Assembly: GCF_988243305.1 (NCBI RefSeq)
Contig: NZ_OZ547136.1
Length of the DNA stretch: 64,000 bases
Reading direction: 5' to 3' (one strand)
Shown: positions 19,846 to 29,998 of the stretch, in pieces
Position numbering within the stretch: position 1 is the first letter of the stretch
How the letters are laid out: every line of letters begins with the position of its first letter
The notes under the pieces: model-generated
What the model was told of the DNA's origin: nothing
Database searches by the model: none
The model's input: the letters and a program-made list of their open reading frames with translations, nothing else
Made by a program: the position numbers and the translations under genes

Positions 19846-21324
19846 ATGTCGAAAAAATACATCATAGGGATTGATGGCGGAAGTCAGAGCACAAAAGTGG
19901 TGATGTATGATCTGGAAGGTAATGTGGTTTGCGAAGGCAAAGGCTTATTGCAGCCGATGCACACGCCAGATGCCGATACCGCAGAACATCCTGACGACGA
20001 TTTATGGGCATCATTATGTTTTGCCGGTCACGATTTGATGAGTCAGTTTGCCGGGAATAAAGAAGATATTGTCGGTATTGGTCTGGGATCCATCCGTTGC
20101 TGCCGTGCGTTATTGAAAGCCGATGGCACGCCAGCTGCGCCGTTGATTAGCTGGCAGGATGCACGCGTTACACGCCCTTACGAACATACGAATCCTGACG
20201 TGGCATATGTCACCTCTTTTTCAGGTTATCTGACGCATCGCTTAACCGGCGAGTTTAAAGACAATATCGCCAACTATTTTGGTCAGTGGCCGGTGGATTA
20301 TAAGACCTGGGCATGGAGTGAAGATGCCGCAGTCATGGAGAAGTTTAATATCCCCCGTCATATGCTGTTTGATGTGCAAATGCCGGGCACTGTTCTTGGG
20401 CATATCACTCCTCAAGCCGCGCTGGCGACACATTTCCCAGCTGGGCTGCCGGTTGTTTGTACCACCAGTGATAAACCGGTAGAAGCACTGGGAGCCGGGT
20501 TACTGGATGATGAAACTGCGGTAATTTCTCTTGGCACTTACATCGCGTTGATGATGAACGGCAAAGCACTGCCGAAAGATCCGGTGGCGTACTGGCCGAT
20601 TATGTCTTCTATTCCGCAAACATTGCTGTATGAAGGTTACGGTATTCGCAAAGGCATGTGGACGGTGAGCTGGCTACGCGACATGTTAGGCGAGTCGTTA
20701 ATTCAGGATGCCAAAGCACAGGATCTTTCACCGGAAGATTTGCTCAACAAAAAAGCGTCTTGTGTGCCGCCAGGCTGTAATGGTCTGATGACGGTGCTGG
20801 ACTGGCTGACCAATCCGTGGGAACCGTACAAACGCGGGATTATGATTGGCTTTGATTCCAGCATGGATTACGCATGGATATATCGTTCGATACTGGAAAG
20901 CGTGGCGCTGACGCTGAAGAACAATTACGACAATATGTGTAATGAAATGAATCACTTTGCAAAGCATGTGATCATTACTGGCGGCGGTTCGAACAGCGAT
21001 CTGTTTATGCAGATTTTTGCCGACGTGTTCAACCTTCCGGCACGCCGTAACGCCATTAATGGTTGTGCAAGCCTGGGGGCAGCGATTAATACGGCGGTAG
21101 GTCTGGGGCTATACCCGGATTACGCAACGGCTGTCGACAAAATGGTTCGCGTGAAAGATATCTTTATGCCTGTTGAGAACAATGCCAAACGCTACGACGC
21201 GATGAATAAAGGCATTTTCAAGGAGTTAACCAAACATACTGATGTAATCCTGAAAAAATCGTATGAAGTGATGCATGGGGAATTGGGGAATGCGGATTCG
21301 ATCCAGAGCTGGTCGAATGCGTAA
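19846..21324 (+). CDS. ygcE: FGGY-family carbohydrate kinase (492 aa)
   Basis: N-terminal IGIDGGSQSTKVVMYD actin-fold kinase motif. Confidence 0.9.
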   Translation: MSKKYIIGIDGGSQSTKVVMYDLEGNVVCEGKGLLQPMHTPDADTAEHPDDDLWASLCFAGHDLMSQFAGNKEDIVGIGLGSIRCCRALLKADGTPAAPLISWQDARVTRPYEHTNPDVAYVTSFSGYLTHRLTGEFKDNIANYFGQWPVDYKTWAWSEDAAVMEKFNIPRHMLFDVQMPGTVLGHITPQAALATHFPAGLPVVCTTSDKPVEALGAGLLDDETAVISLGTYIALMMNGKALPKDPVAYWPIMSSIPQTLLYEGYGIRKGMWTVSWLRDMLGESLIQDAKAQDLSPEDLLNKKASCVPPGCNGLMTVLDWLTNPWEPYKRGIMIGFDSSMDYAWIYRSILESVALTLKNNYDNMCNEMNHFAKHVIITGGGSNSDLFMQIFADVFNLPARRNAINGCASLGAAINTAVGLGLYPDYATAVDKMVRVKDIFMPVENNAKRYDAMNKGIFKELTKHTDVILKKSYEVMHGELGNADSIQSWSNA

Positions 21325-21370
21325 GTGAGGAAGGCCGGGCGGGAAACTGCCCGGCCTGAACATACCTGAA

Positions 21371-21508
21371 TGGTTATCCCCGCTGACGTGGGGAACATAA
21401 GTTCGACAACTTAAAAAATGATAACAAGTCCGGTTTATCCCCGCTGATGCAGGGAACATAATAAAAACTTTAACTAGTTCGGTTTATCCCTGTTGTTACA
21501 AGGAATAT
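21371..21508 (-). CRISPR. Degenerate CRISPR remnant: 3 decayed type I-E repeats with 32-bp and 20-bp spacers
   Basis: Plus-strand repeats tggttatccccgctgacgtggggaacat (21371-21398), cggtttatccccgctgatgcagggaacat (21431-21459), cggtttatccctgttgttacaaggaatat (21480-21508). Confidence 0.6.
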
Positions 21509-21962
21509 TAACTACACTCGATGTCCTTAGAATAAAAGACAACGCAAACCGTACTTTATCAATTTTCATTTAAAGTATGAACTGGATATCTTTATTCATA
21601 AGAACTATTCATCAACAGCCTATAGAGACGGTTATGTAAAACCACTCATTAGCCTCAAAACAAAGACAAATTTCCAGATTTATTACTTAATCAATGAATA
21701 ATAAGCTTAAAAAACAATCTATTATCCTAAAGAAAAAATTAACAAACATCAATTCAATATTAAAAAAATAATATATGATAATTTCTTAATGATTTAAGTA
21801 TCATACAACTAACACTTTAATTAAATTTGATTTTTTGTATCGATAATTGTGAACTTATCATATATGGAGAGCTATTTTGAACATGAGGTGTTACGTGGAT
21901 ATATTGCTTAATACGAGTACTGCTAATATAAAAACTTGAGAAAGAGATAACGGGTTATATGG

Positions 21963-22418
21963 TGGTTTATCCCCGCTGGCGCGGGGAACTCCGTCAGTGT
22001 GCCAGTTGCTACTGTTTCCCATACGGTTTATCCCCGCTGACGCGGGGAACTCATCAGTGATATCCAACATTGCGGAGCTAAACGCGGTTTATCCCCGCTG
22101 GCGCGGGGAACTCTATAAATGTGCCATATACGGCGTTTGTTGCCTCGGTTTATCCCCGCTGGCGCGGGGAACTCCTCCCGGTGATGCGGGTTATGTGGCC
22201 TGCCGCCGGTTTATCCCCGCTGGCGCGGGGAACTCTTCGCCGCGTCAACAATTCGGACCTGTAAATCCGGTTTATCCCCGCTGGCGCGGGGAACTCATCC
22301 GGCGAACGCGCTACAGAGTACAGTTCACCGGTTTATCCCCGCTGGCGCGGGGAACTCGGAAACCGCCCCGGCGGTGGTTAGCTGTTTGCCGGTTTATCCC
22401 CGCTGGCGCGGGGAACTC
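21963..22418 (-). CRISPR. Type I-E CRISPR array, 8 repeats (29 bp) and 7 spacers (32 bp each)
   Basis: Plus-strand repeat cggtttatccccgctggcgcggggaactc at 21963, 22024, 22085, 22146, 22207, 22268, 22329, 22390; reverse complement is the canonical E. coli repeat, so crRNA is from the minus strand. Repeat at 21963 starts with t, repeat at 22024 has gctgAcgc. Confidence 0.95.
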
Positions 22419-22560
22419 TCTAAACATAACCTATTATTAATTAATAATTTTTTAAGCCAGTCACAATCTACCAACTTTATAGTATCACACAAACAACACA
22501 TCCATTATGTTAAAGAGCACTTAATCCATTGATTGAAAAGCTAAATATTTAAAGTAATCC
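22419..22560 (-). promoter_or_regulatory. Putative CRISPR leader (AT-rich) adjacent to the newest repeat
   Basis: AT-rich sequence tctaaacataacctattattaattaataattttttaagcc... upstream of the first repeat in the direction of transcription; degenerate repeats lie at the opposite end. Confidence 0.5.
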
Positions 22561-22757
22561 TATACCGACTAAAATCTACCAAACTTTACCGCAATAATTT
22601 TCACTCCAGCGAAAAATTAATGCCGCAGAATTTGTAGAGAATGCTAATGATTAGCCCTGGATGGGTAAAATGGAGGAGTTTTCAGAGGCGACAAACAATA
22701 TAAATGAGTAGAAATCTTTACAGGTTCCACCCATTTATAACGCTTATAAATGTTTAA

Positions 22758-23429
22758 TCAGGCAATATTTAGATATTTATGTGTTTGCATCGACAAACGC
22801 CAATTACGAGCAATGCAGGTTTCAATGCACAATCGTGTGGCATCATCCTTTTGGCTAATCGGCTGCAGTGCAATGACTCGCGGTTTATCATCGGTCAGCG
22901 TCGCCAAAAGTTCATCCAGTGCTTCAATATCACGTACGCGTCCCACTGGATGCTTGATTTCGTTGGCTCGCTCCAGTGCCTGTGACAACACTTCATAGCC
23001 GCCGCGCATGTTCAGCTTTGGCGATACGGTAACCCAGGTATTCGGTGTGCAGCGTACCTCATGAGTACCACTGGTTTCGATCTGGCAGCTAAAACCGTTC
23101 TTTTCGAGCAGGTCAGTCAGTGGCAGCAAATCATGAATGCAAGGCTCACCACCCGTAATCACCACATGCCGCGCGGTGTATCCCTGGCGACCAATGACAG
23201 CCAGCAAGTCTTCACTGCTCGCCGCCCCCCACTTATCACTCTCTTTGGTCTTCGCCAGAATGCTGAAAAGGGAGACTTCCCGATCCTCAAGCTTTTCCCA
23301 GGTGTGTTTGGTGTCGCACCAGGCACAGCCAACCGGGCATCCCTGTAAACGAATAAAAATGGCGGGGACGCCGGTAAAGTAACCCTCACCTTGCAGGGTC
23401 TGGAACATCTCGTTAATCGGGTACTGCAT
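22758..23429 (-). CDS. queE: 7-carboxy-7-deazaguanine synthase, radical SAM (223 aa)
   Basis: 223 aa ORF with the cysteine cluster QGCPVGCAWCDTKHTW. Confidence 0.92.
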   Translation of the reverse strand: MQYPINEMFQTLQGEGYFTGVPAIFIRLQGCPVGCAWCDTKHTWEKLEDREVSLFSILAKTKESDKWGAASSEDLLAVIGRQGYTARHVVITGGEPCIHDLLPLTDLLEKNGFSCQIETSGTHEVRCTPNTWVTVSPKLNMRGGYEVLSQALERANEIKHPVGRVRDIEALDELLATLTDDKPRVIALQPISQKDDATRLCIETCIARNWRLSMQTHKYLNIA

Positions 23430-23601
23430 AGCATTCTCTGTGAAGTGGATAATTGTTAATTATTGCAGATCCTGCCACAACAATCATGTCTTATTAACAT
23501 TCTGTTACAGGCAGTTTTAAGGCAAAAAGTGGATTAGATCATAAAGAATAAAATGAAGCAGAGTATTATGTTTTAAGGAATTAATTAAAAGGGATTTAAA
23601 C

Positions 23602-24204
23602 ATGCTCAGAATATTCATCGTAATTATATTTATTTTCAATTTATCAGGCTGTGGATATAACGATATTCAAACCTATGATGAGCAGGTTAACGCCTCCTGG
23701 TCTGAGGTATTGAATCAATATCAACGTCGCGCCGATCTTATTCCTAATCTTGTCGCCAGCATTAAAGGTTATTCCAGCCATGAACGAGATGTACTGGAAG
23801 CCGTAACATTGGCTCGTAGCCAGGCTAATCGCGCCAGTAGCGATCTTCAGCAAACTCCGGGCGATGAACAAAAATTACAAGCCTGGCAACAGGCTCAAGC
23901 GCAGGTGACTCGCACTCTCGGTCAGTTAACGATAATTAGTGAGCGTTACCCTGAGTTAAAATCTCAGGAACTCTATCAAAATTTAATGGTACAGCTTGAA
24001 GGAAGTGAAAATCGGATTGCCGTTGCGCGAGGAAGATATATTAAAGCCATTGAACAATATAATGTCACTATCCGCAAATTCCCCGCTGTGTTAACCGCAA
24101 AGGTCATGGATTACACACCAAAGAAAAATTATTTGCCGGATGATGTCGCCGCAGTAAGTAAAGCCCCAACAATAGATTTTAGCCAGAATGCTAATGCTCA
24201 TTAA
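23602..24204 (+). CDS. LemA-family protein, predicted lipoprotein (200 aa)
   Basis: N-terminal signal with lipobox NLSGC (Cys17), followed by a LemA-like helical domain; first gene of a 4-gene operon. Confidence 0.8.
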   Translation: MLRIFIVIIFIFNLSGCGYNDIQTYDEQVNASWSEVLNQYQRRADLIPNLVASIKGYSSHERDVLEAVTLARSQANRASSDLQQTPGDEQKLQAWQQAQAQVTRTLGQLTIISERYPELKSQELYQNLMVQLEGSENRIAVARGRYIKAIEQYNVTIRKFPAVLTAKVMDYTPKKNYLPDDVAAVSKAPTIDFSQNANAH

Positions 24205-24217
24205 GCGGGGAAGTTCT

Positions 24218-25111
24218 ATGCGAAATTTTATCTTCCTTATGGCTTTCTTCTGTTCATCTGTGTTTGCCACACAAATTCCAGTACCTGAATCACCCAAGTA
24301 TGTGAATGACTTAACCGGCACATTAACAAACAGCGAAGTAAACACCCTGACCAACCAGATTAAAGCCCTGACGCAAAAAAACTACGCACAGTTGGTCGTG
24401 TTAGTGGTTGAAACAACTGGCGATGAAACCATCGAGCAGTACGCAACGCGGGTATTCGATAGCTGGAAACCGGGTGATAAAGACCACGATGATGGCGTTC
24501 TACTGTTAGTCGCCTGGCAGGATCATACCGTGCGTATTGAAATCGGTTACGGACTGGAAGGTATTATTACGGATGCACAGTCCGGGAAAATTATTCGCAA
24601 CAGTATTATTCCGGCATTTAAAAAAGGGGACCTGGCTGGTGGTTTGCAAAAGGGAATCAGCGATATTGAAAGTCGTCTGACGGGGAATAATTTAGCAACG
24701 ATAACACCGACCGATCACCCTTTGCCTTTTAGCGGTTGGTGGGCTTTGTTAGTCTGGGCGATAGTACTGACGTTTATTTCTGCCAGAGGATATATCAAAA
24801 CGCTGGGAGTAATTTGCTTCGCAGCTATTGTACTGGCCTTTGTTTTACCTATAGCAGGCTTCAGCGGAAGCTGGGGAGTACTCGCAACATTACTCTGCTT
24901 CGCCACACCGTTCCTGGCTGTCGCCATCGCTTTTACCCCCTTCGGCAAAAAGGTTCGGGATTCGATGCGTGATGCCAACCAGCCATCACGCCATACAAGA
25001 AGCAATTCTTCCTCCCACTATTCATCATCGTCATCCTCTTCATTCAACAATGACAATTTCAGCGGTGGTGGCGGTTCATCTGGTGGCGGTGGCGCTTCCG
25101 GGCGCTGGTAA
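24218..25111 (+). CDS. TPM-domain (YgcG-like) membrane protein, paralog 1 (297 aa)
   Basis: Signal peptide MRNFIFLMAFFCSSVFA, TPM-like core (GVLLLVAWQDHTVRIEIGYGLEG), 3 predicted TM helices, tail ...FSGGGGSSGGGGASGRW; 13-bp gap after lemA stop. Confidence 0.8.
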   Translation: MRNFIFLMAFFCSSVFATQIPVPESPKYVNDLTGTLTNSEVNTLTNQIKALTQKNYAQLVVLVVETTGDETIEQYATRVFDSWKPGDKDHDDGVLLLVAWQDHTVRIEIGYGLEGIITDAQSGKIIRNSIIPAFKKGDLAGGLQKGISDIESRLTGNNLATITPTDHPLPFSGWWALLVWAIVLTFISARGYIKTLGVICFAAIVLAFVLPIAGFSGSWGVLATLLCFATPFLAVAIAFTPFGKKVRDSMRDANQPSRHTRSNSSSHYSSSSSSSFNNDNFSGGGGSSGGGGASGRW

Positions 25112-25125
25112 CAAAAGGAATTGAT

Positions 25126-26274
25126 ATGCGTATTTTTCTCTTACTTCTGATGCTATGCGGTTTTCAGGTATTCGCTGAACAATTGCCTTCAGTAACTGAC
25201 TTAACCGGGACATTAACGACAGAAGAACAAACTGCTTTAACTCAACAATTACAGACTCTCGAGCAGCAAAACCACTTCCAGGTGGCCGTGTTGGTCACGC
25301 CGACCACAGGGGGCAAAAACATTAAACTTGCAGCCTCGCAGAGATACGGGGTATATCACTGGAAACCCGTTGGAGAGAAGCGATATGGCGAAGGTATCTT
25401 AATTCTCGTCGTATGGCCGGAAGGGCTGGCGTCAATGAAGATTGGACATGGACTGGAACAGATGTTGCCGCCGGAACAAGCTTCGCAAATTGTTCGTTAC
25501 CATATGCAGCCAGAATTCGAAAAAAACAATCTCTTTGCTGGATTAACGGGCGGAATTGAAAGCATCGCACAGTTTACCCATATCAAAGCGAACCTTAGCC
25601 CTTTGGATGCTTTAGCCAATCATCTGTTTGCTAATCCGCAACGTTCGCTGCCTTGTCTTGCCTGGACACTGCTGATGATCGTTGCCATCGTTGTCCTCTG
25701 GCGATTTGCCAGCCGCCCAGGGCGTGGCATATGGATGATATCGATGATTACCCCTATGGTCTGGTTTTTCTCCTTTCAGGACGATGTCATCATTCGGCGG
25801 GTATCGGTCGTTTGTTTTAGTTTATTGTTAGCAACAACCTGCAAGCAGCGTCTCGCGGTAGTTTTTAATATGTGCCGCGTATTTCCTATGATGCTGACCC
25901 CAAAAAATAAAAACGCTAAAGTGAAAAAACAAAAGAAGACTCCGCAGGTTCGTGAATCAGGACGAAATTCATTGTTTGTCGTGATGCTGATAATTATTGT
26001 GGGATGGTGCCTGGTGTTCGCCAGTAATAAAGATATTGCATTCATCTCAACAATTATTGGGTTAATTGATCATTTTATCGGCCCAATAACCATTGCTGGC
26101 ATCGTTCTGCTGATCATTGTGGCCAAATTTACTGGCAATCTTAAGCTGGGATCAGGAGAAAAAAGCAACAGGAAAACGGGGAATCGTAATGCTCATTCTC
26201 GCTCTTCGTCGAGAAATTCTTTCCGCGGTGGTGGCGGTTCTTCAGGAGGCGGCGGTTCATCCGGCCGTTGGTGA
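25126..26274 (+). CDS. TPM-domain (YgcG-like) membrane protein, paralog 2, diverged (382 aa)
   Basis: Signal peptide MRIFLLLLMLCGFQVFA, diverged TPM core (GILILVVWPEGLASMKIGHGLE), lysine-rich segment KNKNAKVKKQKK, TM helices, tail RGGGGSSGGGGSSGRW. Confidence 0.75.
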   Translation: MRIFLLLLMLCGFQVFAEQLPSVTDLTGTLTTEEQTALTQQLQTLEQQNHFQVAVLVTPTTGGKNIKLAASQRYGVYHWKPVGEKRYGEGILILVVWPEGLASMKIGHGLEQMLPPEQASQIVRYHMQPEFEKNNLFAGLTGGIESIAQFTHIKANLSPLDALANHLFANPQRSLPCLAWTLLMIVAIVVLWRFASRPGRGIWMISMITPMVWFFSFQDDVIIRRVSVVCFSLLLATTCKQRLAVVFNMCRVFPMMLTPKNKNAKVKKQKKTPQVRESGRNSLFVVMLIIIVGWCLVFASNKDIAFISTIIGLIDHFIGPITIAGIVLLIIVAKFTGNLKLGSGEKSNRKTGNRNAHSRSSSRNSFRGGGGSSGGGGSSGRW

Positions 26275-26279
26275 TCGTA

Positions 26280-27185
26280 ATGCGCTTAATCTTTATTCTA
26301 CTTGCTTTGTGGAGCCTTCCCGGGCTTGCCCAGCAAATTGCTGTGCCGGAGCTGCGCCAACAAGTGACTGATATTACTGGTACGTTAAGCACGTCTGAAC
26401 AGCAATCGCTAACGCAGCAGCTGCAGGATATTACACATAAAACACGGGCGCAGGTCGCTGTATTAGTAGTGCCGTCCACCGGAGACGATTCCATTGAACA
26501 ATATGCAGCACGCGTTTTTGATAGCTGGAAACTGGGAGATAAGCAGAGAAACGATGGTATTTTACTTCTGGTTGCCTGGGAGGAGCATGCTGTTCGTATT
26601 GAGGTTGGCTACGGGCTGGAAGGGGTGGTTACCGACCTGCAAGCGGCGAAGATTATCAGAGATATTTTGATCCCTGCCTTCAAAAGTGATGACCTGATGG
26701 GTGGATTAACACTGGCAAGCGAAAATATCGGCGCGCTTCTGTTGAATGGTGAATTATCGGAAGACAGGGGGGATTATTACAGTATCAATCCCTTTATTCC
26801 ATTATCGCTTGCTGTAATTATATTGCTGGCGGTACTTTCATATTTTATTGTTTTTACCGATCCGTCGAATTTACCCTGGATCACTCTCACTGGCGCCATT
26901 TACGGGATGGTATTCCTCTATGTTGCCGAGCCAGGACCATGGACCAATTTAATCGTTGCCTGCGGTATGCTCACGCCTTTTGCCATCGTACCACTGCTTA
27001 TTTTTTGGCTTATCGTTAATAAAAAGCTACGCGCTAAATACAAGAAGCTCGGTAAAGAAAGAGCTTCAAGAAAAGGTTCTTCTTCATCCTCTTCCGGTGG
27101 CGGCTCAAGTGGCGGAGGCTCAGGCGGTGGCTTTAGCGGCGGGGGCGGTTCTTCTGGCGGTGGCGGCGCGTCCGGTCGCTGGTAA
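26280..27185 (+). CDS. ygcG: TPM-domain membrane protein, paralog 3 (301 aa), probable counterpart of K-12 ygcG
   Basis: Signal peptide MRLIFILLALWSLPGLA, TPM core (GILLLVAWEEHAVRIEVGYGLEG), TM helices, tail GGGGSSGGGGASGRW; last gene before the terminator hairpin and eno, the position ygcG holds in K-12. Confidence 0.75.
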   Translation: MRLIFILLALWSLPGLAQQIAVPELRQQVTDITGTLSTSEQQSLTQQLQDITHKTRAQVAVLVVPSTGDDSIEQYAARVFDSWKLGDKQRNDGILLLVAWEEHAVRIEVGYGLEGVVTDLQAAKIIRDILIPAFKSDDLMGGLTLASENIGALLLNGELSEDRGDYYSINPFIPLSLAVIILLAVLSYFIVFTDPSNLPWITLTGAIYGMVFLYVAEPGPWTNLIVACGMLTPFAIVPLLIFWLIVNKKLRAKYKKLGKERASRKGSSSSSSGGGSSGGGSGGGFSGGGGSSGGGGASGRW

Positions 27186-27203
27186 CTCAACCATAAAAAA
27201 TGC

Positions 27204-27217
27204 CAGCCCGAAGGCTG
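27204..27217. repeat. Target-site duplication (left copy) of IS4 insertion, CAGCCCGAAGGCTG
   Basis: Identical 14-bp sequence directly flanks both IS4 ends (also 28644-28657); the true duplication may be 13 bp given the palindromic target. Confidence 0.8.
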
Positions 27218-28643
27218 TAATGCCGATCAGTTAAGGATCAGTTGACCGATCCAGTGGCTGTGTAAGAATCCGGAAACGCTCACTTGTTTCCGGATTTTTT
27301 TATGCACATTGGACAGGCTCTTGATCTGGTATCCCGTTACGATTCTCTGCGTAACCCACTGACTTCTCTGGGGGATTACCTCGACCCCGAACTCATCTCT
27401 CGTTGCCTTGCCGAATCAGGTACTGTAACGCTACGCAAGCGCCGTCTTCCCCTCGAAATGATGGTCTGGTGTATTGTTGGCATGGCGCTTGAGCGTAAAG
27501 AACCTCTTCACCAGATTGTGAATCGCCTGGACATCATGCTGCCGGGCAATCGCCCCTTCGTTGCCCCCAGTGCCGTTATTCAGGCCCGCCAGCGCCTGGG
27601 AAGTGAGGCTGTCCGCCGCGTGTTCACGAAAACAGCGCAGCTCTGGCATAACGCCACGCCGCATCCGCACTGGTGCGGCCTGACCCTGCTGGCCATCGAT
27701 GGTGTGTTCTGGCGCACACCGGATACACCAGAGAACGATGCAGCCTTCCCCCGCCAGACACATGCCGGGAACCCGGCGCTCTACCCGCAGGTCAAAATGG
27801 TCTGCCAGATGGAACTGACCAGCCATCTGCTGACGGCTGCAGCCTTCGGCACGATGAAGAACAGCGAAAATGAGCTTGCTGAGCAACTTATAGAACAAAC
27901 CGGCGATAACACTCTGACGTTAATGGATAAAGGTTATTACTCACTGGGACTGTTAAATGCCTGGAGCCTGGCGGGAGAACACCGCCACTGGATGATACCT
28001 CTCAGAAAGGGAGCGCAATATGAAGAGATCAGAAAACTGGGTAAAGGCGATCATCTGGTGAAGCTGAAAACCAGCCCGCAGGCACGAAAAAAGTGGCCGG
28101 GACTGGGAAATGAAGTGACAGCCCGCCTGCTGACCGTGACGCGCAAAGGAAAAGTCTGCCATCTGCTGACGTCGATGACGGACGCCATGCGCTTCCCCGG
28201 AGGAGAAATGGCGGATCTGTACAGTCATCGCTGGGAAATCGAACTGGGATACAGGGAGATAAAACAGACGATGCAACTGAGCAGGCTGACGCTGAGAAGT
28301 AAAAAACCGGAGCTTGTGGAGCAAGAGCTGTGGGGTGTCTTACTGGCTTATAATCTGGTGAGATATCAGATGATTAAAATGGCGGAACATCTGAAAGGTT
28401 ACTGGCCGAATCAACTGAGTTTCTCAGAATCATGTGGAATGGTGATGAGAATGCTGATGACATTGCAGGGCGCTTCACCGGGACGTATACCGGAGCTGAT
28501 GCGCGATCTTGCAAGTATGGGACAACTTGTGAAATTACCGACAAGAAGGGAAAGGGCCTTCCCGAGAGTGGTAAAGGAGAGGCCCTGGAAATACCCCACA
28601 GCCCCGAAAAAGAGCCAGTCAGTTGCTTAACTGACTGGCATTA
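27218..28643 (+). mobile_element. Insertion sequence IS4, complete (1426 bp)
   Basis: Imperfect terminal inverted repeats TAATGCCGATCAGTTAAGG (27218-27236) and TAATGCCAGTCAGTTAAGC (reverse complement of 28625-28643); single 442-aa transposase ORF; 1426 bp matches the recalled IS4 size; flanking direct repeats. Confidence 0.9.
27302..28630 (+). CDS. insG: IS4 transposase (442 aa from [14 protein letters not shown])
   Basis: ORF track 27284..28630; recognised as IS4-family transposase sequence. Confidence 0.88.
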
Positions 28644-28657
28644 CAGCCCGAAGGCTG
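28644..28657. repeat. Target-site duplication (right copy) of IS4 insertion, CAGCCCGAAGGCTG
   Basis: Matches 27204-27217; rejoining the flanks rebuilds a palindromic hairpin aaaaaatgccagcc-cgaa-ggctggcattttt. Confidence 0.8.
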
Positions 28658-28684
28658 GCATTTTTAAATCAGATAAAGTCAGAC

Positions 28685-29998
<1,314 letters not shown>

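What the first reader, a model, noticed from the sequence alone, without database searches (positions are those of the whole stretch)
23602..27185. LemA lipoprotein plus three tandem, diverged TPM-domain membrane paralogs form a tight four-gene operon
Between queE and eno sit a LemA-family lipoprotein and three consecutive TPM-domain proteins with intergenic gaps of only 13, 14 and 5 bp. Each TPM protein has a signal peptide, a periplasmic TPM-like core, C-terminal TM helices and a Gly/Ser-rich tail. Paralogs 1 and 3 are moderately similar; paralog 2 is strongly diverged with an inserted lysine-rich segment. As far as I recall K-12 carries a single ygcG here with no lemA, so this looks like an expanded, strain-variable module of unknown function next to a CRISPR array and an IS element. 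A role in envelope stress or defense is speculation.
Basis: partly seen in the sequence, partly recalled or inferred. Interest (0 to 1): 0.65.

Follow-up and report, generated by a model that had tools for sequence, protein, structure and literature searches.

The report
LemA plus three TPM membrane paralogs
This is a real, selectively maintained four-gene operon (a LemA lipoprotein plus three YgcG-type TPM membrane proteins) found in about one fifth of complete E. coli genomes; K-12 keeps only a decayed remnant, the genes are already annotated in RefSeq, and their function is still untested.

Summary
lemA (23602-24204) and three TPM-domain genes (24218-25111, 25126-26274, 26280-27185) lie on one strand with gaps of 13, 14 and 5 nt. 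Pfam matches are strong (LemA 5.6e-48; TPM 3.5e-40, 2.3e-21, 1.2e-37) and dN/dS is 0.03-0.38.

The locus has three haplotypes among 5,426 complete E. coli genomes:
- this four-gene form, 1,102 genomes (20%, including O157:H7, UTI89, 536 and a Nissle derivative), also present in E. albertii
- lemA + TPM1 + a 120-aa ORF, 340 genomes (6%)
- K-12-type yqcG + ygcG, 3,926 genomes (72%)

K-12's 46-aa yqcG is a vestige of the lemA 5' end, so K-12 is reduced rather than this strain expanded.

In 60 of 80 other, mostly proteobacterial, species lemA is followed by a YgcG-type protein (here "TPM-A") ending in GGGGASGxW and by a short cytoplasmic TPM protein (here "TPM-B"). Escherichia instead has three TPM-A paralogs and no TPM-B. 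TPM2 occurs only in Escherichia and has lost conserved TPM residues.

No PADLOC defence model matches. The function is untested. The best inference is an envelope module that helps assemble or maintain membrane complexes. It is a lineage-specific variant of a widespread, uncharacterised operon, of modest interest.

The parts
23430..23601 (+). queE-lemA divergent intergenic region. The queE-proximal ~85 nt are identical to K-12. From ~23515 the sequence is only ~70% like K-12. The lemA Shine-Dalgarno motif AAGGGA lies 8 nt upstream of the ATG.
   Evidence: Alignment A1; blastn 84% over 207 nt, E 4e-60; sequence. No sigma-70 consensus hit in the spacer. In K-12 this region binds PhoP-P (PMC4974570).
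23602..24204 (+). lemA: a 200-aa LemA-family lipoprotein (lipobox NLSG|C, Gly at +2) predicted to form a periplasmic four-helix bundle.
24218..25111 (+). TPM1: a 297-aa YgcG-type ('TPM-A') protein with a signal peptide, a periplasmic TPM domain, three TM helices and a Gly/Ser tail ending in GRW.
25126..26274 (+). TPM2: a 382-aa diverged, Escherichia-only TPM-A paralog. Its TPM domain has lost family-conserved residues. It has about five TM helices, a Lys/Arg-rich loop (residues 240-281) and a Gly/Ser tail ending in GRW.
   Evidence: PF04536 2.3e-21. It scores 78 bits against my TPM-A model, versus 157-160 bits for TPM1 and TPM3. Conserved columns are substituted: G115->Q, D119->P, R106->S, E108->K, E70->K, R78->Q. 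Full-length homologues occur only in Escherichia. dN/dS 0.26-0.38.
26280..27185 (+). TPM3: a 301-aa TPM-A paralog (alternative TTG start at 26268 overlaps the TPM2 stop). It occupies the position allelic to K-12 ygcG.
   Evidence: PF04536 1.2e-37. It is 45% identical to K-12 YgcG. Nissle-type TPM3 is a mosaic: the N-terminal ~120 aa are 90-100% like this TPM3 and the rest is 80-100% like K-12 YgcG. The last 63 nt are 95-97% identical to the K-12-type ygcG 3' end.
25058..25112 (+). Tail-coding repeat, copy 1 (F-S-GGGGSSGGGGASGRW-stop).
   Evidence: the repeat finder family D1: three copies, 78-84% identical, differing mainly at synonymous Gly/Ser codon positions.
26221..26275 (+). Tail-coding repeat, copy 2.
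27132..27186 (+). Tail-coding repeat, copy 3. It is also the right-hand junction between the four-gene and K-12-type haplotypes.
27195..27217 (.). Left half of the bidirectional TPM3/eno terminator (AAAAAATGCCAGCCCGAAGGCTG), split by IS4. The 14-bp target duplication is at 27204-27217.
   Evidence: Sequence; terminator scan.
27218..28643 (+). IS4 (1,426 bp). It is not part of the operon; it is an independent insertion into the terminator hairpin.
   Evidence: NF033592 IS4 transposase 9.1e-91. Ends and target duplication read from the sequence. Present at this site in only 35 of 5,426 genomes.
28644..28665 (.). Right half of the split terminator (CAGCCCGAAGGCTGGCATTTTT). The second copy of the target duplication is at 28644-28657.

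Best explanation
What it is (shown). This is a chromosomal operon, old within the genus Escherichia. It encodes a LemA-family lipoprotein and three YgcG-type paralogs. Each paralog has a signal peptide, an extracytoplasmic TPM domain, three to five TM helices and a tail ending in ...GGGGxSGRW. The locus is the Escherichia version of a widespread operon, lemA -> TPM-A -> TPM-B. In Escherichia TPM-A has been triplicated, before the E. coli/E. albertii split, and the cytoplasmic TPM-B is absent. K-12's yqcG-ygcG is a decayed allele: the lemA body, TPM1 and TPM2 are gone, and a 46-aa ORF survives over the lemA signal-peptide codons.

How it most likely works (inferred). LemA is exported and lipidated. 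Gly at +2 predicts Lol sorting to the outer membrane, so its four-helix bundle faces the periplasm. The three TPM proteins sit in the inner membrane with their TPM domains in the periplasm and their Gly-rich tails in the cytoplasm (three TM helices in TPM1, positive-inside rule). Together they act as a non-enzymatic, chaperone-like module that helps assemble or stabilise membrane-embedded complexes. It is probably switched on under envelope stress. TPM1 and TPM3 keep the conserved TPM surface. TPM2 is a degenerate, specialised subunit.

My confidence that the genes and their evolutionary relationships are as described is about 0.95. My confidence in the assembly/maintenance function is about 0.35.
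For: Identity and anatomy.

Real genes: dN/dS 0.03-0.38. The tail peptide is conserved through synonymous changes.

Operon: same strand, gaps of 13/14/5 nt with Shine-Dalgarno motifs, and only one weak hairpin inside TPM2. The only convincing terminator is the hairpin after TPM3.

A functional LemA-TPM partnership:
- 74 of 80 species loci fetched with LemA have at least one TPM ORF within 3.5 kb, all on the same strand. 60 of 80 show the order lemA, TPM-A, TPM-B.
- The pair is adjacent or overlapping in Klebsiella, Brenneria, Pseudomonas and Burkholderia.
- It is also adjacent in Enterococcus phage and metagenomic phage records.

Ancestry: E. albertii has all three TPM clades. Klebsiella has lemA plus one TPM at the queE-eno site. 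yqcG is colinear and in frame with lemA codons 5-12.

Assembly-factor reading:
- The TPM protein CcoZ is needed for cbb3 oxidase activity (PMC8267372).
- Two comparative-genomic papers argue that the TPM domain is unlikely to be a phosphatase and propose a role in assembling membrane-linked complexes (PMC11237479; PMC12419801).
- MamQ, the only LemA member tied to a cellular process, is needed for magnetosome membrane formation (PMC4902198).

Envelope-stress link: NCBI and the K-12 record name the remnant YqcG 'cell envelope stress response protein', and it shares its upstream region with lemA. lemA and a TPM gene are both up-regulated in a Flavobacterium sppA mutant with membrane defects (PMC13236525).
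Against: - No experiment on any LemA-TPM operon was found.
- An AF2 model of mature LemA linked to the TPM1 domain, built with 44 paired sequences, folded both domains (pLDDT 81.8) but gave pTM 0.58. That means no confident docking, so a direct 1:1 LemA-TPM contact is not supported.
- LemA has many invariant polar residues (E35, R42, R43, D45, H60, E61, E114, E133, E136, N137, R138 and others). That pattern fits an enzyme or a specific ligand binder better than a passive scaffold.
- 72% of complete E. coli genomes do without lemA, TPM1 and TPM2, and O157:H7 has a nonsense codon in TPM1. Whatever the module does is dispensable in many lineages.
- No promoter was identified, and regulation by envelope stress is only extrapolated from YqcG.
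- The client complex is unknown.
Confidence: 0.5

Rival explanations
1. A periplasmic phospho-hydrolase module. The TPM domains of TPM1 and TPM3 would be metal-dependent phosphatases or nucleotidases acting on a periplasmic or membrane-surface substrate. LemA would be a regulator or substrate-presenting partner, and TPM2 an inactive pseudo-enzyme subunit.
For: - The Pfam family is named TPM_phosphatase.
- Metal sites are reported in the TPM-domain structures 7TBR, BA42, TLP18.3 and LMTP1.
- TPM1 and TPM3 keep every column that is 100% conserved in 57 TPM-A domains (D31, L36, Q58, G86, E114, G115, D119, P132, G142). TPM2 has lost G115 and D119 and several nearly invariant charged residues. This is the pattern expected for active paralogs plus a pseudo-enzyme.
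Against: - Two comparative analyses conclude that the TPM domain is unlikely to be a phosphatase.
- The reported metal sites are at different positions in different TPM structures, with no consensus.
- Members with a known biological setting act as assembly or accessory subunits.
- No catalytic motif could be tested here.
Confidence: 0.2
2. A trans-envelope sensor or tether. Outer-membrane-anchored LemA would contact inner-membrane TPM proteins across the periplasm, in the way RcsF-IgaA or NlpE-CpxA do. The invariant cytoplasmic tail would pass the state on to a cytoplasmic partner (TPM-B in other bacteria).
For: - The lipobox has Gly/Ser/Asn at +2 in all 15 proteobacterial LemA proteins aligned. 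By the +2 rule that predicts outer-membrane sorting.
- TPM-A spans the inner membrane, with a periplasmic domain and a cytoplasmic tail.
- The common third gene, TPM-B, has no signal peptide or TM segment, so it is cytoplasmic.
- The tail motif GGGxFGGGGASGxW is invariant in 45 of 45 operons.
- AF2 models the last 7 residues as a confident beta-strand (pLDDT about 90). I infer that it pairs with the TPM sheet, the only sheet in the model.
Against: - E. coli and Klebsiella lack TPM-B.
- No output domain or regulator is encoded nearby.
- The LemA-TPM1 fusion model showed no confident docking.
- Outside proteobacteria LemA is described as anchored by an N-terminal TM helix rather than by a lipid, so an outer-to-inner-membrane bridge cannot be the general mechanism.
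- The covariation test was uninformative.
Confidence: 0.1
3. An anti-phage, exclusion or surface-variation locus. The deep haplotype diversity would reflect conflict with phages or colicins, and the module would block infection or vary a receptor.
For: - There are three deeply diverged haplotypes, plus mosaic TPM3 alleles, at one site.
- Synonymous divergence is high (lemA dS 0.19-0.26, against 0.05-0.06 for eno).
- LemA homologues, sometimes next to a TPM ORF, occur in some phage records, and LemA matches phrog_1383.
- The locus lies next to a CRISPR array.
Against: - None of the four proteins matches any PADLOC model, even at E 0.1.
- Phage occurrences are rare: 40 and 12 of 50,697 records, several of them unannotated metagenomic contigs.
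- The genes are under purifying, not diversifying, selection.
- The proteins are predicted to face the periplasm and cytoplasm, not the cell surface.
- The CRISPR array lies at the same place, between ygcE and queE, in other strains, so it is not a sign of a defence island.
- No nuclease, ATPase or other effector domain is present.
Confidence: 0.07
4. Genes on their way out. The module would be a largely redundant relic in E. coli, kept by inertia in some phylogroups, with no important present-day function.
For: - 72% of complete genomes have lost lemA, TPM1 and TPM2.
- O157:H7 has a nonsense codon in TPM1.
- TPM2 is the least constrained gene and has lost conserved residues.
- TPM-B, which is present in most other proteobacteria, is missing.
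Against: - All four ORFs are intact in the window, UTI89, the Nissle derivative, E500002 and E. albertii.
- dN/dS is 0.03-0.38 across divergences up to dS 0.4-0.76.
- The three paralog lineages have been kept apart since before the E. coli/E. albertii split.
Confidence: 0.08

Closest known systems
Widespread proteobacterial operon lemA -> TPM-A (YgcG family) -> TPM-B. It is seen in annotation only; I found no paper describing it.
   Same: LemA is a lipoprotein with the same lipobox. It is followed immediately on the same strand by a YgcG-type protein with a signal peptide, TPM domain, three TM helices and a tail ending in GGGGASGxW.
   Different: Escherichia has three TPM-A paralogs, against one in 73 of the 74 species loci that have any (the exception is E. 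albertii). It has no cytoplasmic TPM-B. TPM2 has extra TM helices, a Lys-rich loop and a degenerate TPM core.
E. coli K-12 yqcG-ygcG (b4682, b2778)
   Same: Same chromosomal site between queE and eno. The queE-proximal spacer is identical, and the 13-nt gap before the TPM gene is the same. The ygcG 3' end is 95-97% identical to that of TPM3. YgcG is a TPM-A protein.
   Different: K-12 has no lemA, TPM1 or TPM2. yqcG is a 46-aa ORF that covers the lemA signal-peptide codons from a new upstream start and has lost the lipobox. YgcG is only 38-45% identical to TPM1 and TPM3.
BA41 of Bizionia argentinensis (PDB 5ANP)
   Different: It comes from Bacteroidota. It is reported as an ATPase/ADPase in vitro, an activity not tested here. 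Its gene neighbourhood was not examined.
Psb32 / TLP18.3 / LMTP1 (lumenal TPM proteins of photosystem II) and the TPM-like subunits of respiratory complexes (CcoZ; 6ADQ chain J)
   Different: Sequence identity is only 13-16%. Their clients are known (PSII, cbb3 oxidase, the CIII2CIV2 supercomplex). They have no LemA partner, no Gly-rich tail, and one TM helix or none.
MamQ (a LemA-family magnetosome protein) and T. maritima LemA (PDB 2ETD)
   Different: It is not a MamQ equivalog. MamQ is anchored by a TM helix rather than a lipid, and it acts with other Mam proteins, not TPM proteins.
B. subtilis YdjH (a TPM protein) in the pspA-like ydjFGHL operon
   Same: [quoted passage not shown]
   Different: Its partner is a PspA/band-7 system, not LemA. 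No sequence comparison was made here.

Membership tests
LemA family (Pfam PF04011) | Full-length match to the family HMM | tested here: met
   E 5.6e-48, model positions 1-149 of 149.
LemA family (Pfam PF04011) | Four-helix-bundle fold of the solved member 2ETD | tested here: met
LemA family (Pfam PF04011) | N-terminal membrane anchor with the rest outside the cytoplasm | tested here: met
   Sequence level only. The signal peptide and lipobox NLSG|C are conserved in 15 proteobacterial homologues. Lipidation and localisation cannot be tested with these tools.
MamQ equivalog (NCBIfam NF040966) | Score above the curated cutoff of 250 bits | tested here: not met
   89.9 bits. It is a LemA relative, not a MamQ.
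TPM domain (Pfam PF04536) | HMM match across the domain, in all three proteins | tested here: met
   3.5e-40, 2.3e-21 and 1.2e-37, each covering model positions 1 to 123-124 of 125.
TPM domain (Pfam PF04536) | Alpha/beta fold with a four-stranded sheet | tested here: met
TPM domain (Pfam PF04536) | Family-invariant residues (columns 100% conserved in 57 TPM-A domains) | tested here: inconclusive
   TPM1 and TPM3 keep all nine. TPM2 lacks two (G115->Q, D119->P) and six nearly invariant ones.
TPM domain as a phosphatase | Metal-dependent phospho-hydrolase activity | not testable with these tools
   Activity is disputed in the literature.
YgcG family / 'TPM-A' class (my operational class) | Signal peptide + TPM domain + odd number of TM helices + C-terminal ...GGGG[AS]SGxW | tested here: met
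   All three proteins score higher against my TPM-A model (157, 78 and 160 bits) than against my TPM-B model (13-29 bits). The tails end in GGGGASGRW or GGGGSSGRW. TM count.
lemA/TPM-A/TPM-B operon | lemA immediately upstream of TPM-A on the same strand | tested here: met
   13-nt gap. The same order is seen in other species' loci.
lemA/TPM-A/TPM-B operon | A short cytoplasmic TPM-B gene (ending ...NELPDRPVLL) downstream | tested here: not met
   The 64-kb window contains no ORF that fits my TPM-B model better than my TPM-A model. None is present in Klebsiella or E. albertii at this site either. The rest of the genome could not be searched.
Known anti-phage defence systems (PADLOC-DB 2.0) | Match of any component to a defence-system model | tested here: not met
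   No hits for any of the four proteins at E up to 0.1.
Mobile genomic island | Integrase or transposase-bounded, variable insertion site, plasmid or phage copies | tested here: not met
   All 2,482 matches are chromosomal, at one place per genome in nearly every case (highest 2) and none on plasmids. The site is fixed between queE and eno. The IS4 is a separate event with its own 14-bp target duplication.

The most novel reading that the evidence does not exclude
The LemA/TPM module would be a so far undescribed trans-membrane device. The invariant C-terminal peptide GGGGASGxW of each TPM-A protein would dock as an added beta-strand onto a TPM domain. In most proteobacteria that would be the cytoplasmic TPM-B; in Escherichia it would be another partner, or another TPM-A. 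This would couple the state of the periplasmic LemA/TPM assembly to the cytoplasmic side. The three deeply diverged E. coli haplotypes would then be an old polymorphism kept by selection, not simple decay. K-12's stress-induced small protein YqcG would be a domesticated fragment of the LemA signal peptide.
Probability: 0.12. Interest if true: 0.7.

Novelty: new variant of a known kind. Interest (0 to 1): 0.35.

Why it matters
LemA and YgcG/TPM proteins are among the more widespread bacterial envelope protein families that still have no assigned function. This locus gives a genetically tractable entry point. E. coli carries natural full (four-gene), intermediate (lemA + TPM1) and minimal (ygcG only) versions at one chromosomal site, so isogenic swaps are straightforward.

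The work also recasts three K-12 facts:
- yqcG, catalogued as an independent stress-induced small protein, is a leftover of lemA.
- ygcG is the last survivor of a larger operon.
- The promoter region shared with queE, which binds PhoP in K-12, probably serves the full operon in pathogenic lineages such as O157:H7 and UPEC strains.

The practical importance is modest until a phenotype is found.

Tried and rejected
- PADLOC scan of all four proteins: no hits. The defence reading was set aside.
- Rfam scan of 21000-29000: nothing at gathering threshold.
- Sigma-70 promoter scan: no consensus site in the queE-lemA spacer, and fewer hits overall than in shuffled sequence. I looked by eye for a PhoP box (TGTTAC-N5-GTTTTA, about 23502-23518, 9 of 12 matches). 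It is too weak to claim.
- NCBIfam: only sub-threshold hits (MamQ 89.9 bits against a cutoff of 250; Psb32 about 31-34 bits against 160). These are not memberships.
- AF2 on a LemA-linker-TPM1-domain fusion with 44 paired orthologue sequences: both domains folded, but pTM was 0.58, so no confident interface. This is inconclusive, because the tool returns no PAE or coordinates.
- Mutual information between the variable penultimate tail residue and columns of TPM-A, TPM-B and LemA (as a control): similar low values in all three (0.18-0.25), confounded by phylogeny.
- Literature: 'LemA' with 'TPM domain' gave 2 papers, both only gene lists. 'ygcG' gave 13 papers, none functional.
- I first read the PGAP 'incomplete' flags as a common truncation of TPM1. 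Alignment showed the genes are intact everywhere examined except O157:H7, so that idea was dropped.
- I checked whether the ATA start of ygcG in one K-12-like strain signalled decay. MG1655 has ATG, so it is not a general feature.

Full report

Yes. One search lists four consecutive + strand ORFs between queE (22758-23429, - strand) and an IS4 copy that precedes eno (28685-29983, - strand).

| Gene | Coordinates | Length |
|---|---|---|
| lemA | 23602-24204 | 200 aa |
| TPM1 | 24218-25111 | 297 aa |
| TPM2 | 25126-26274 | 382 aa |
| TPM3 | 26280-27185 | 301 aa |

- The gaps are 13, 14 and 5 nt. PGAP starts TPM3 at the TTG at 26268, which overlaps the TPM2 stop.
- Each gene is preceded by a Shine-Dalgarno-like motif.
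- Pfam supports both families. LemA matches PF04011 at 5.6e-48. The TPM proteins match PF04536 at 3.5e-40, 2.3e-21 and 1.2e-37.
- LemA matches the solved T. maritima LemA, 2ETD (E 7.7e-32). TPM1 matches 7TBR, BA41/5ANP, PG0361/2KW7 and BA42.
AF2 shows three TM helices in TPM1. Hydropathy gives two clear segments in TPM3 and four in TPM2, with a weaker extra segment in each that I read from the sequence.
- TPM2 carries an extra Lys/Arg-rich loop (residues 240-281, 12 K/R).
- TPM1 and TPM3 are 44% identical. TPM2 is 32-35% identical to either.
- All four genes are under purifying selection against UTI89, strain E500002 and E. albertii, with dN/dS 0.03-0.38.

**2. How variable is the locus in E. 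coli?**

Three haplotypes account for 98.9% of 5,426 complete genomes.

| Haplotype | Genomes | Share | Source |
|---|---|---|---|
| Four-gene form | 1,102 | 20% | |
| lemA + TPM1 + unrelated 120-aa ORF | 340 | 6% | |
| K-12 type, yqcG + ygcG | 3,926 | 72% | |

- The four-gene form is 92-100% identical across its carriers. They include O157:H7, UTI89, 536 and a Nissle derivative.
- All copies are chromosomal, at the same site, and none is on a plasmid.
- RefSeq already annotates these genes as 'LemA family protein' and 'TPM domain-containing/YgcG family protein'.
The arrangement is nevertheless common and already catalogued.

**3. Which state is ancestral?**

- E. albertii has the same four genes, and each of its three TPM genes groups with one E. 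coli paralog. The triplication therefore predates the split of the two species.
- Klebsiella has lemA plus one TPM gene between queE and eno.
- In K-12 the spacer next to queE is identical for about 85 nt. Beyond that, similarity continues at about 70% through yqcG into the first codons of lemA.
- After a 1-nt indel, yqcG codons 16-23 (FTKIIFIF) are in frame with lemA codons 5-12 (FIVIIFIF). The lipobox is lost.
- On the right side, K-12-type ygcG shares only its last 63 nt with TPM3, at 95-97% identity.
- Nissle-type strains carry a mosaic TPM3. Its first ~120 residues match this window's TPM3 and the rest matches K-12 YgcG.
- K-12's yqcG-ygcG is therefore a reduced allele of a lemA-TPM operon, and ygcG occupies the TPM3 position.
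- The junctions of all three haplotypes fall at or next to the Gly-tail coding segments. These form a 55-nt repeat family, 78-84% identical.

**4. What does the same module look like elsewhere?**

- A LemA profile fetched 80 species loci, mostly alpha-, beta- and gamma-proteobacteria plus one Leptospira.
- Scanning their ORFs with a TPM model showed that 74 have at least one TPM ORF within 3.5 kb of lemA, all on the same strand. 60 have two.
- The first is a 280-350-aa protein, which I call TPM-A. It has a signal peptide, a TPM domain, three TM helices and a tail with the motif GGGxFGGGGASGxW, invariant in 45 of 45 operons.
- The second is a ~165-aa protein, which I call TPM-B. It has no signal peptide or TM segment and typically ends in a sequence like NELPDRPVLL, so it is cytoplasmic.
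- Only E. albertii had three TPM genes.
- All three E. coli paralogs, K-12 YgcG and the Klebsiella protein belong to the TPM-A class. No TPM-B is present in the window.
- The pair is adjacent or overlapping in Pseudomonas and Brenneria, and it sits inside a T6SS cluster in a Burkholderia.
- It is also adjacent in a few phage or metagenomic records, including an Enterococcus phage.
- The Escherichia operon is therefore a lineage-specific variant of a very widespread module: TPM-A triplicated and TPM-B absent.
- Full-length TPM2 homologues exist only in Escherichia. TPM2 has substitutions at two invariant and six nearly invariant TPM-A columns, whereas TPM1 and TPM3 keep all the invariant ones.

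**5. How might it work?**

Nothing experimental exists for a LemA-TPM operon.

What is shown:
- A lipoprotein-type LemA that forms a four-helix bundle.
- More distant resemblance to Psb32, TLP18.3 and the TPM-like subunit of the mycobacterial CIII2CIV2 supercomplex.

What is inferred:
- Gly at +2 of the lipobox predicts outer-membrane sorting of LemA.
- Three TM helices and the positive-inside rule put the TPM domains in the periplasm and the Gly tails in the cytoplasm.
- TPM proteins with a known setting are accessory or assembly factors of membrane complexes (PMC8267372). Two comparative-genomic studies argue against phosphatase activity and for a chaperone-like role (PMC11237479; PMC12419801).
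- MamQ, the only LemA member with a known process, is needed for magnetosome membrane formation (PMC4902198).
- The K-12 remnant YqcG is named a cell envelope stress response protein. The upstream region is shared with lemA and binds PhoP-P in K-12 (PMC4974570).

My preferred reading is therefore an envelope module that assists the assembly or maintenance of membrane complexes and is probably stress-induced. TPM2 would be a degenerate, specialised subunit. I give this function about 0.35.

**6. Evidence that cuts the other way**

- An AF2 model of LemA fused to the TPM1 domain, built with 44 paired orthologue sequences, folded both parts but gave pTM 0.58. That means no confident docking.
- LemA has many invariant polar residues, which hints at catalysis or specific ligand binding.
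- BA41 is reported to be an ATPase/ADPase.
- Most complete E. coli genomes lack three of the four genes, and the O157:H7 genome examined has a nonsense codon in TPM1.
- The defence idea has no direct support. PADLOC finds nothing. The CRISPR array (21964-22420) lies at the same place, between ygcE and queE, in other strains. The IS4 is a separate event.

**7. An unexplained prediction**

- In the full-length TPM1 model the tail is disordered (pLDDT about 40), except for the last seven residues, GGASGRW.
- Those residues are modelled as a beta-strand with pLDDT about 90. I infer that the strand pairs with the TPM sheet, which is the only sheet in the model.
- Topology forbids this within one molecule, because the tail is cytoplasmic and the TPM domain periplasmic.
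- In most other proteobacteria, however, a cytoplasmic TPM domain (TPM-B) is encoded next door.
- Docking of the tail onto TPM-B would link the two sides of the membrane.
- Escherichia and Klebsiella keep the tail without TPM-B. This is unexplained.

**8. Verdict**

- The module is a new variant (three TPM-A genes, no TPM-B, an Escherichia-only degenerate paralog) of a widespread but uncharacterised kind.
- It is already annotated and common, so it would not greatly surprise a specialist.
- Its value is as a tractable natural allelic series for two large families of unknown function, and for recasting K-12 yqcG and ygcG as remnants.
- Interest: 0.35.

Noticed in passing
window 27195-28665: IS4 (27218-28643, 1,426 bp) is inserted exactly in the hairpin of the bidirectional terminator shared by TPM3 and eno (AAAAAATGCCAGCCCGAAGGCTGGCATTTTT). 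The 14-bp target duplication CAGCCCGAAGGCTG lies at 27204-27217 and 28644-28657. Both genes lose the T-tract that followed their hairpin. Only 35 of 5,426 genomes have this insertion.
   Followed up: partly
L003 2129-2800, L004 2117-2788, L005 2617-3288, L006 2617-3288, L001 5617-6288; L007 2115-2789: PGAP marks TPM1 as an 'incomplete, missing C-terminus' pseudogene in UTI89, E500002, the Nissle derivative, OZ121081 and AMSCJX04. Alignment shows the ORF is intact (297-302 aa) in all of them. Only the O157:H7 genome examined has a real TTA->TGA nonsense at codon 225. Its 224-aa protein (WP_001243487.1) may serve as the reference that produces the artefact; I did not verify this.
   Followed up: yes
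L092 2558-2698 (K-12 yqcG) versus window 23568-23690: The K-12 small protein YqcG (46 aa, 'cell envelope stress response protein') overlaps the homologue of the lemA start region. Its codons 16-23 are in frame with lemA codons 5-12. It therefore looks like a vestige of the lemA signal peptide with a new upstream start. I found no paper saying this.
   Followed up: yes
full-length TPM1 model, residues 291-297 (window 25088-25108): AF2 gives the last seven residues (GGASGRW) pLDDT about 90 and a beta-strand, after a 35-residue disordered stretch. This implies docking onto the TPM sheet, which the predicted membrane topology forbids within one molecule. The motif GGGxFGGGGASGxW is invariant in 45 of 45 operons from other species, and BA41 of a Bacteroidota species also ends in GGGGASGGW.
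   Followed up: partly
L005 4685-5557 and L006 4694-5566: The Nissle-derivative (SYNB1934) and isolate OZ121081 loci carry a 290-aa mosaic TPM3. Residues 1 to about 120 are 90-100% like this window's TPM3. The TM region and tail are 80-100% like K-12 YgcG. The TM regions of the two TPM3 allele types are only 3-20% identical.
   Followed up: partly
L001 6558-6920: In the third haplotype (340 genomes), TPM2 and TPM3 are replaced by an unrelated 120-aa hydrophobic hypothetical protein (WP_000034929.1). That segment is at least 99% identical in 339 of the 340 genomes.
   Followed up: no
L011 3882-5615: In a Burkholderia genome the TPM-lemA pair lies between tssG and the T6SS lipoprotein gene tssJ (SciN), inside a type VI secretion cluster. 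This fits a role with envelope-spanning machines. Only one locus was examined.
   Followed up: no
phage records OR846594 (23077-24524), MT835515 (25620-26684), MT839089, LR745206 (56485-57440): LemA and TPM ORFs are adjacent in an Enterococcus phage, two faecal phage contigs and a 635-kb uncultured phage. LemA also matches phrog_1383, labelled 'virion structural protein' (5.4e-22). Occurrence in phages is rare: 40 and 12 of 50,697 records.
   Followed up: partly
window 21374-21510 and 21964-22420: There are two type I-E CRISPR arrays between ygcE and queE. One has eight repeats of GGTTTATCCCCGCTGGCGCGGGGAACTC at 61-nt spacing. A short degenerate array of two or three repeats lies upstream. Tandem Repeats Finder missed both.
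   Followed up: partly
window 22758-24204 versus L003 and L004: Synonymous divergence is much higher on the queE/lemA side (queE dS 0.14-0.21, lemA 0.19-0.26) than in eno (0.05-0.06) for the same strain pairs. This suggests an old or recombining segment next to the CRISPR array.
   Followed up: no
window 23430-23601: In K-12, phosphorylated PhoP binds the 300 bp upstream of queE, and deleting yqcG raises queE expression (PMC4974570). In this strain that interval contains the lemA promoter region and the 5' end of lemA. PhoPQ control of the operon, and cross-talk with queE, are therefore plausible but untested.
   Followed up: no
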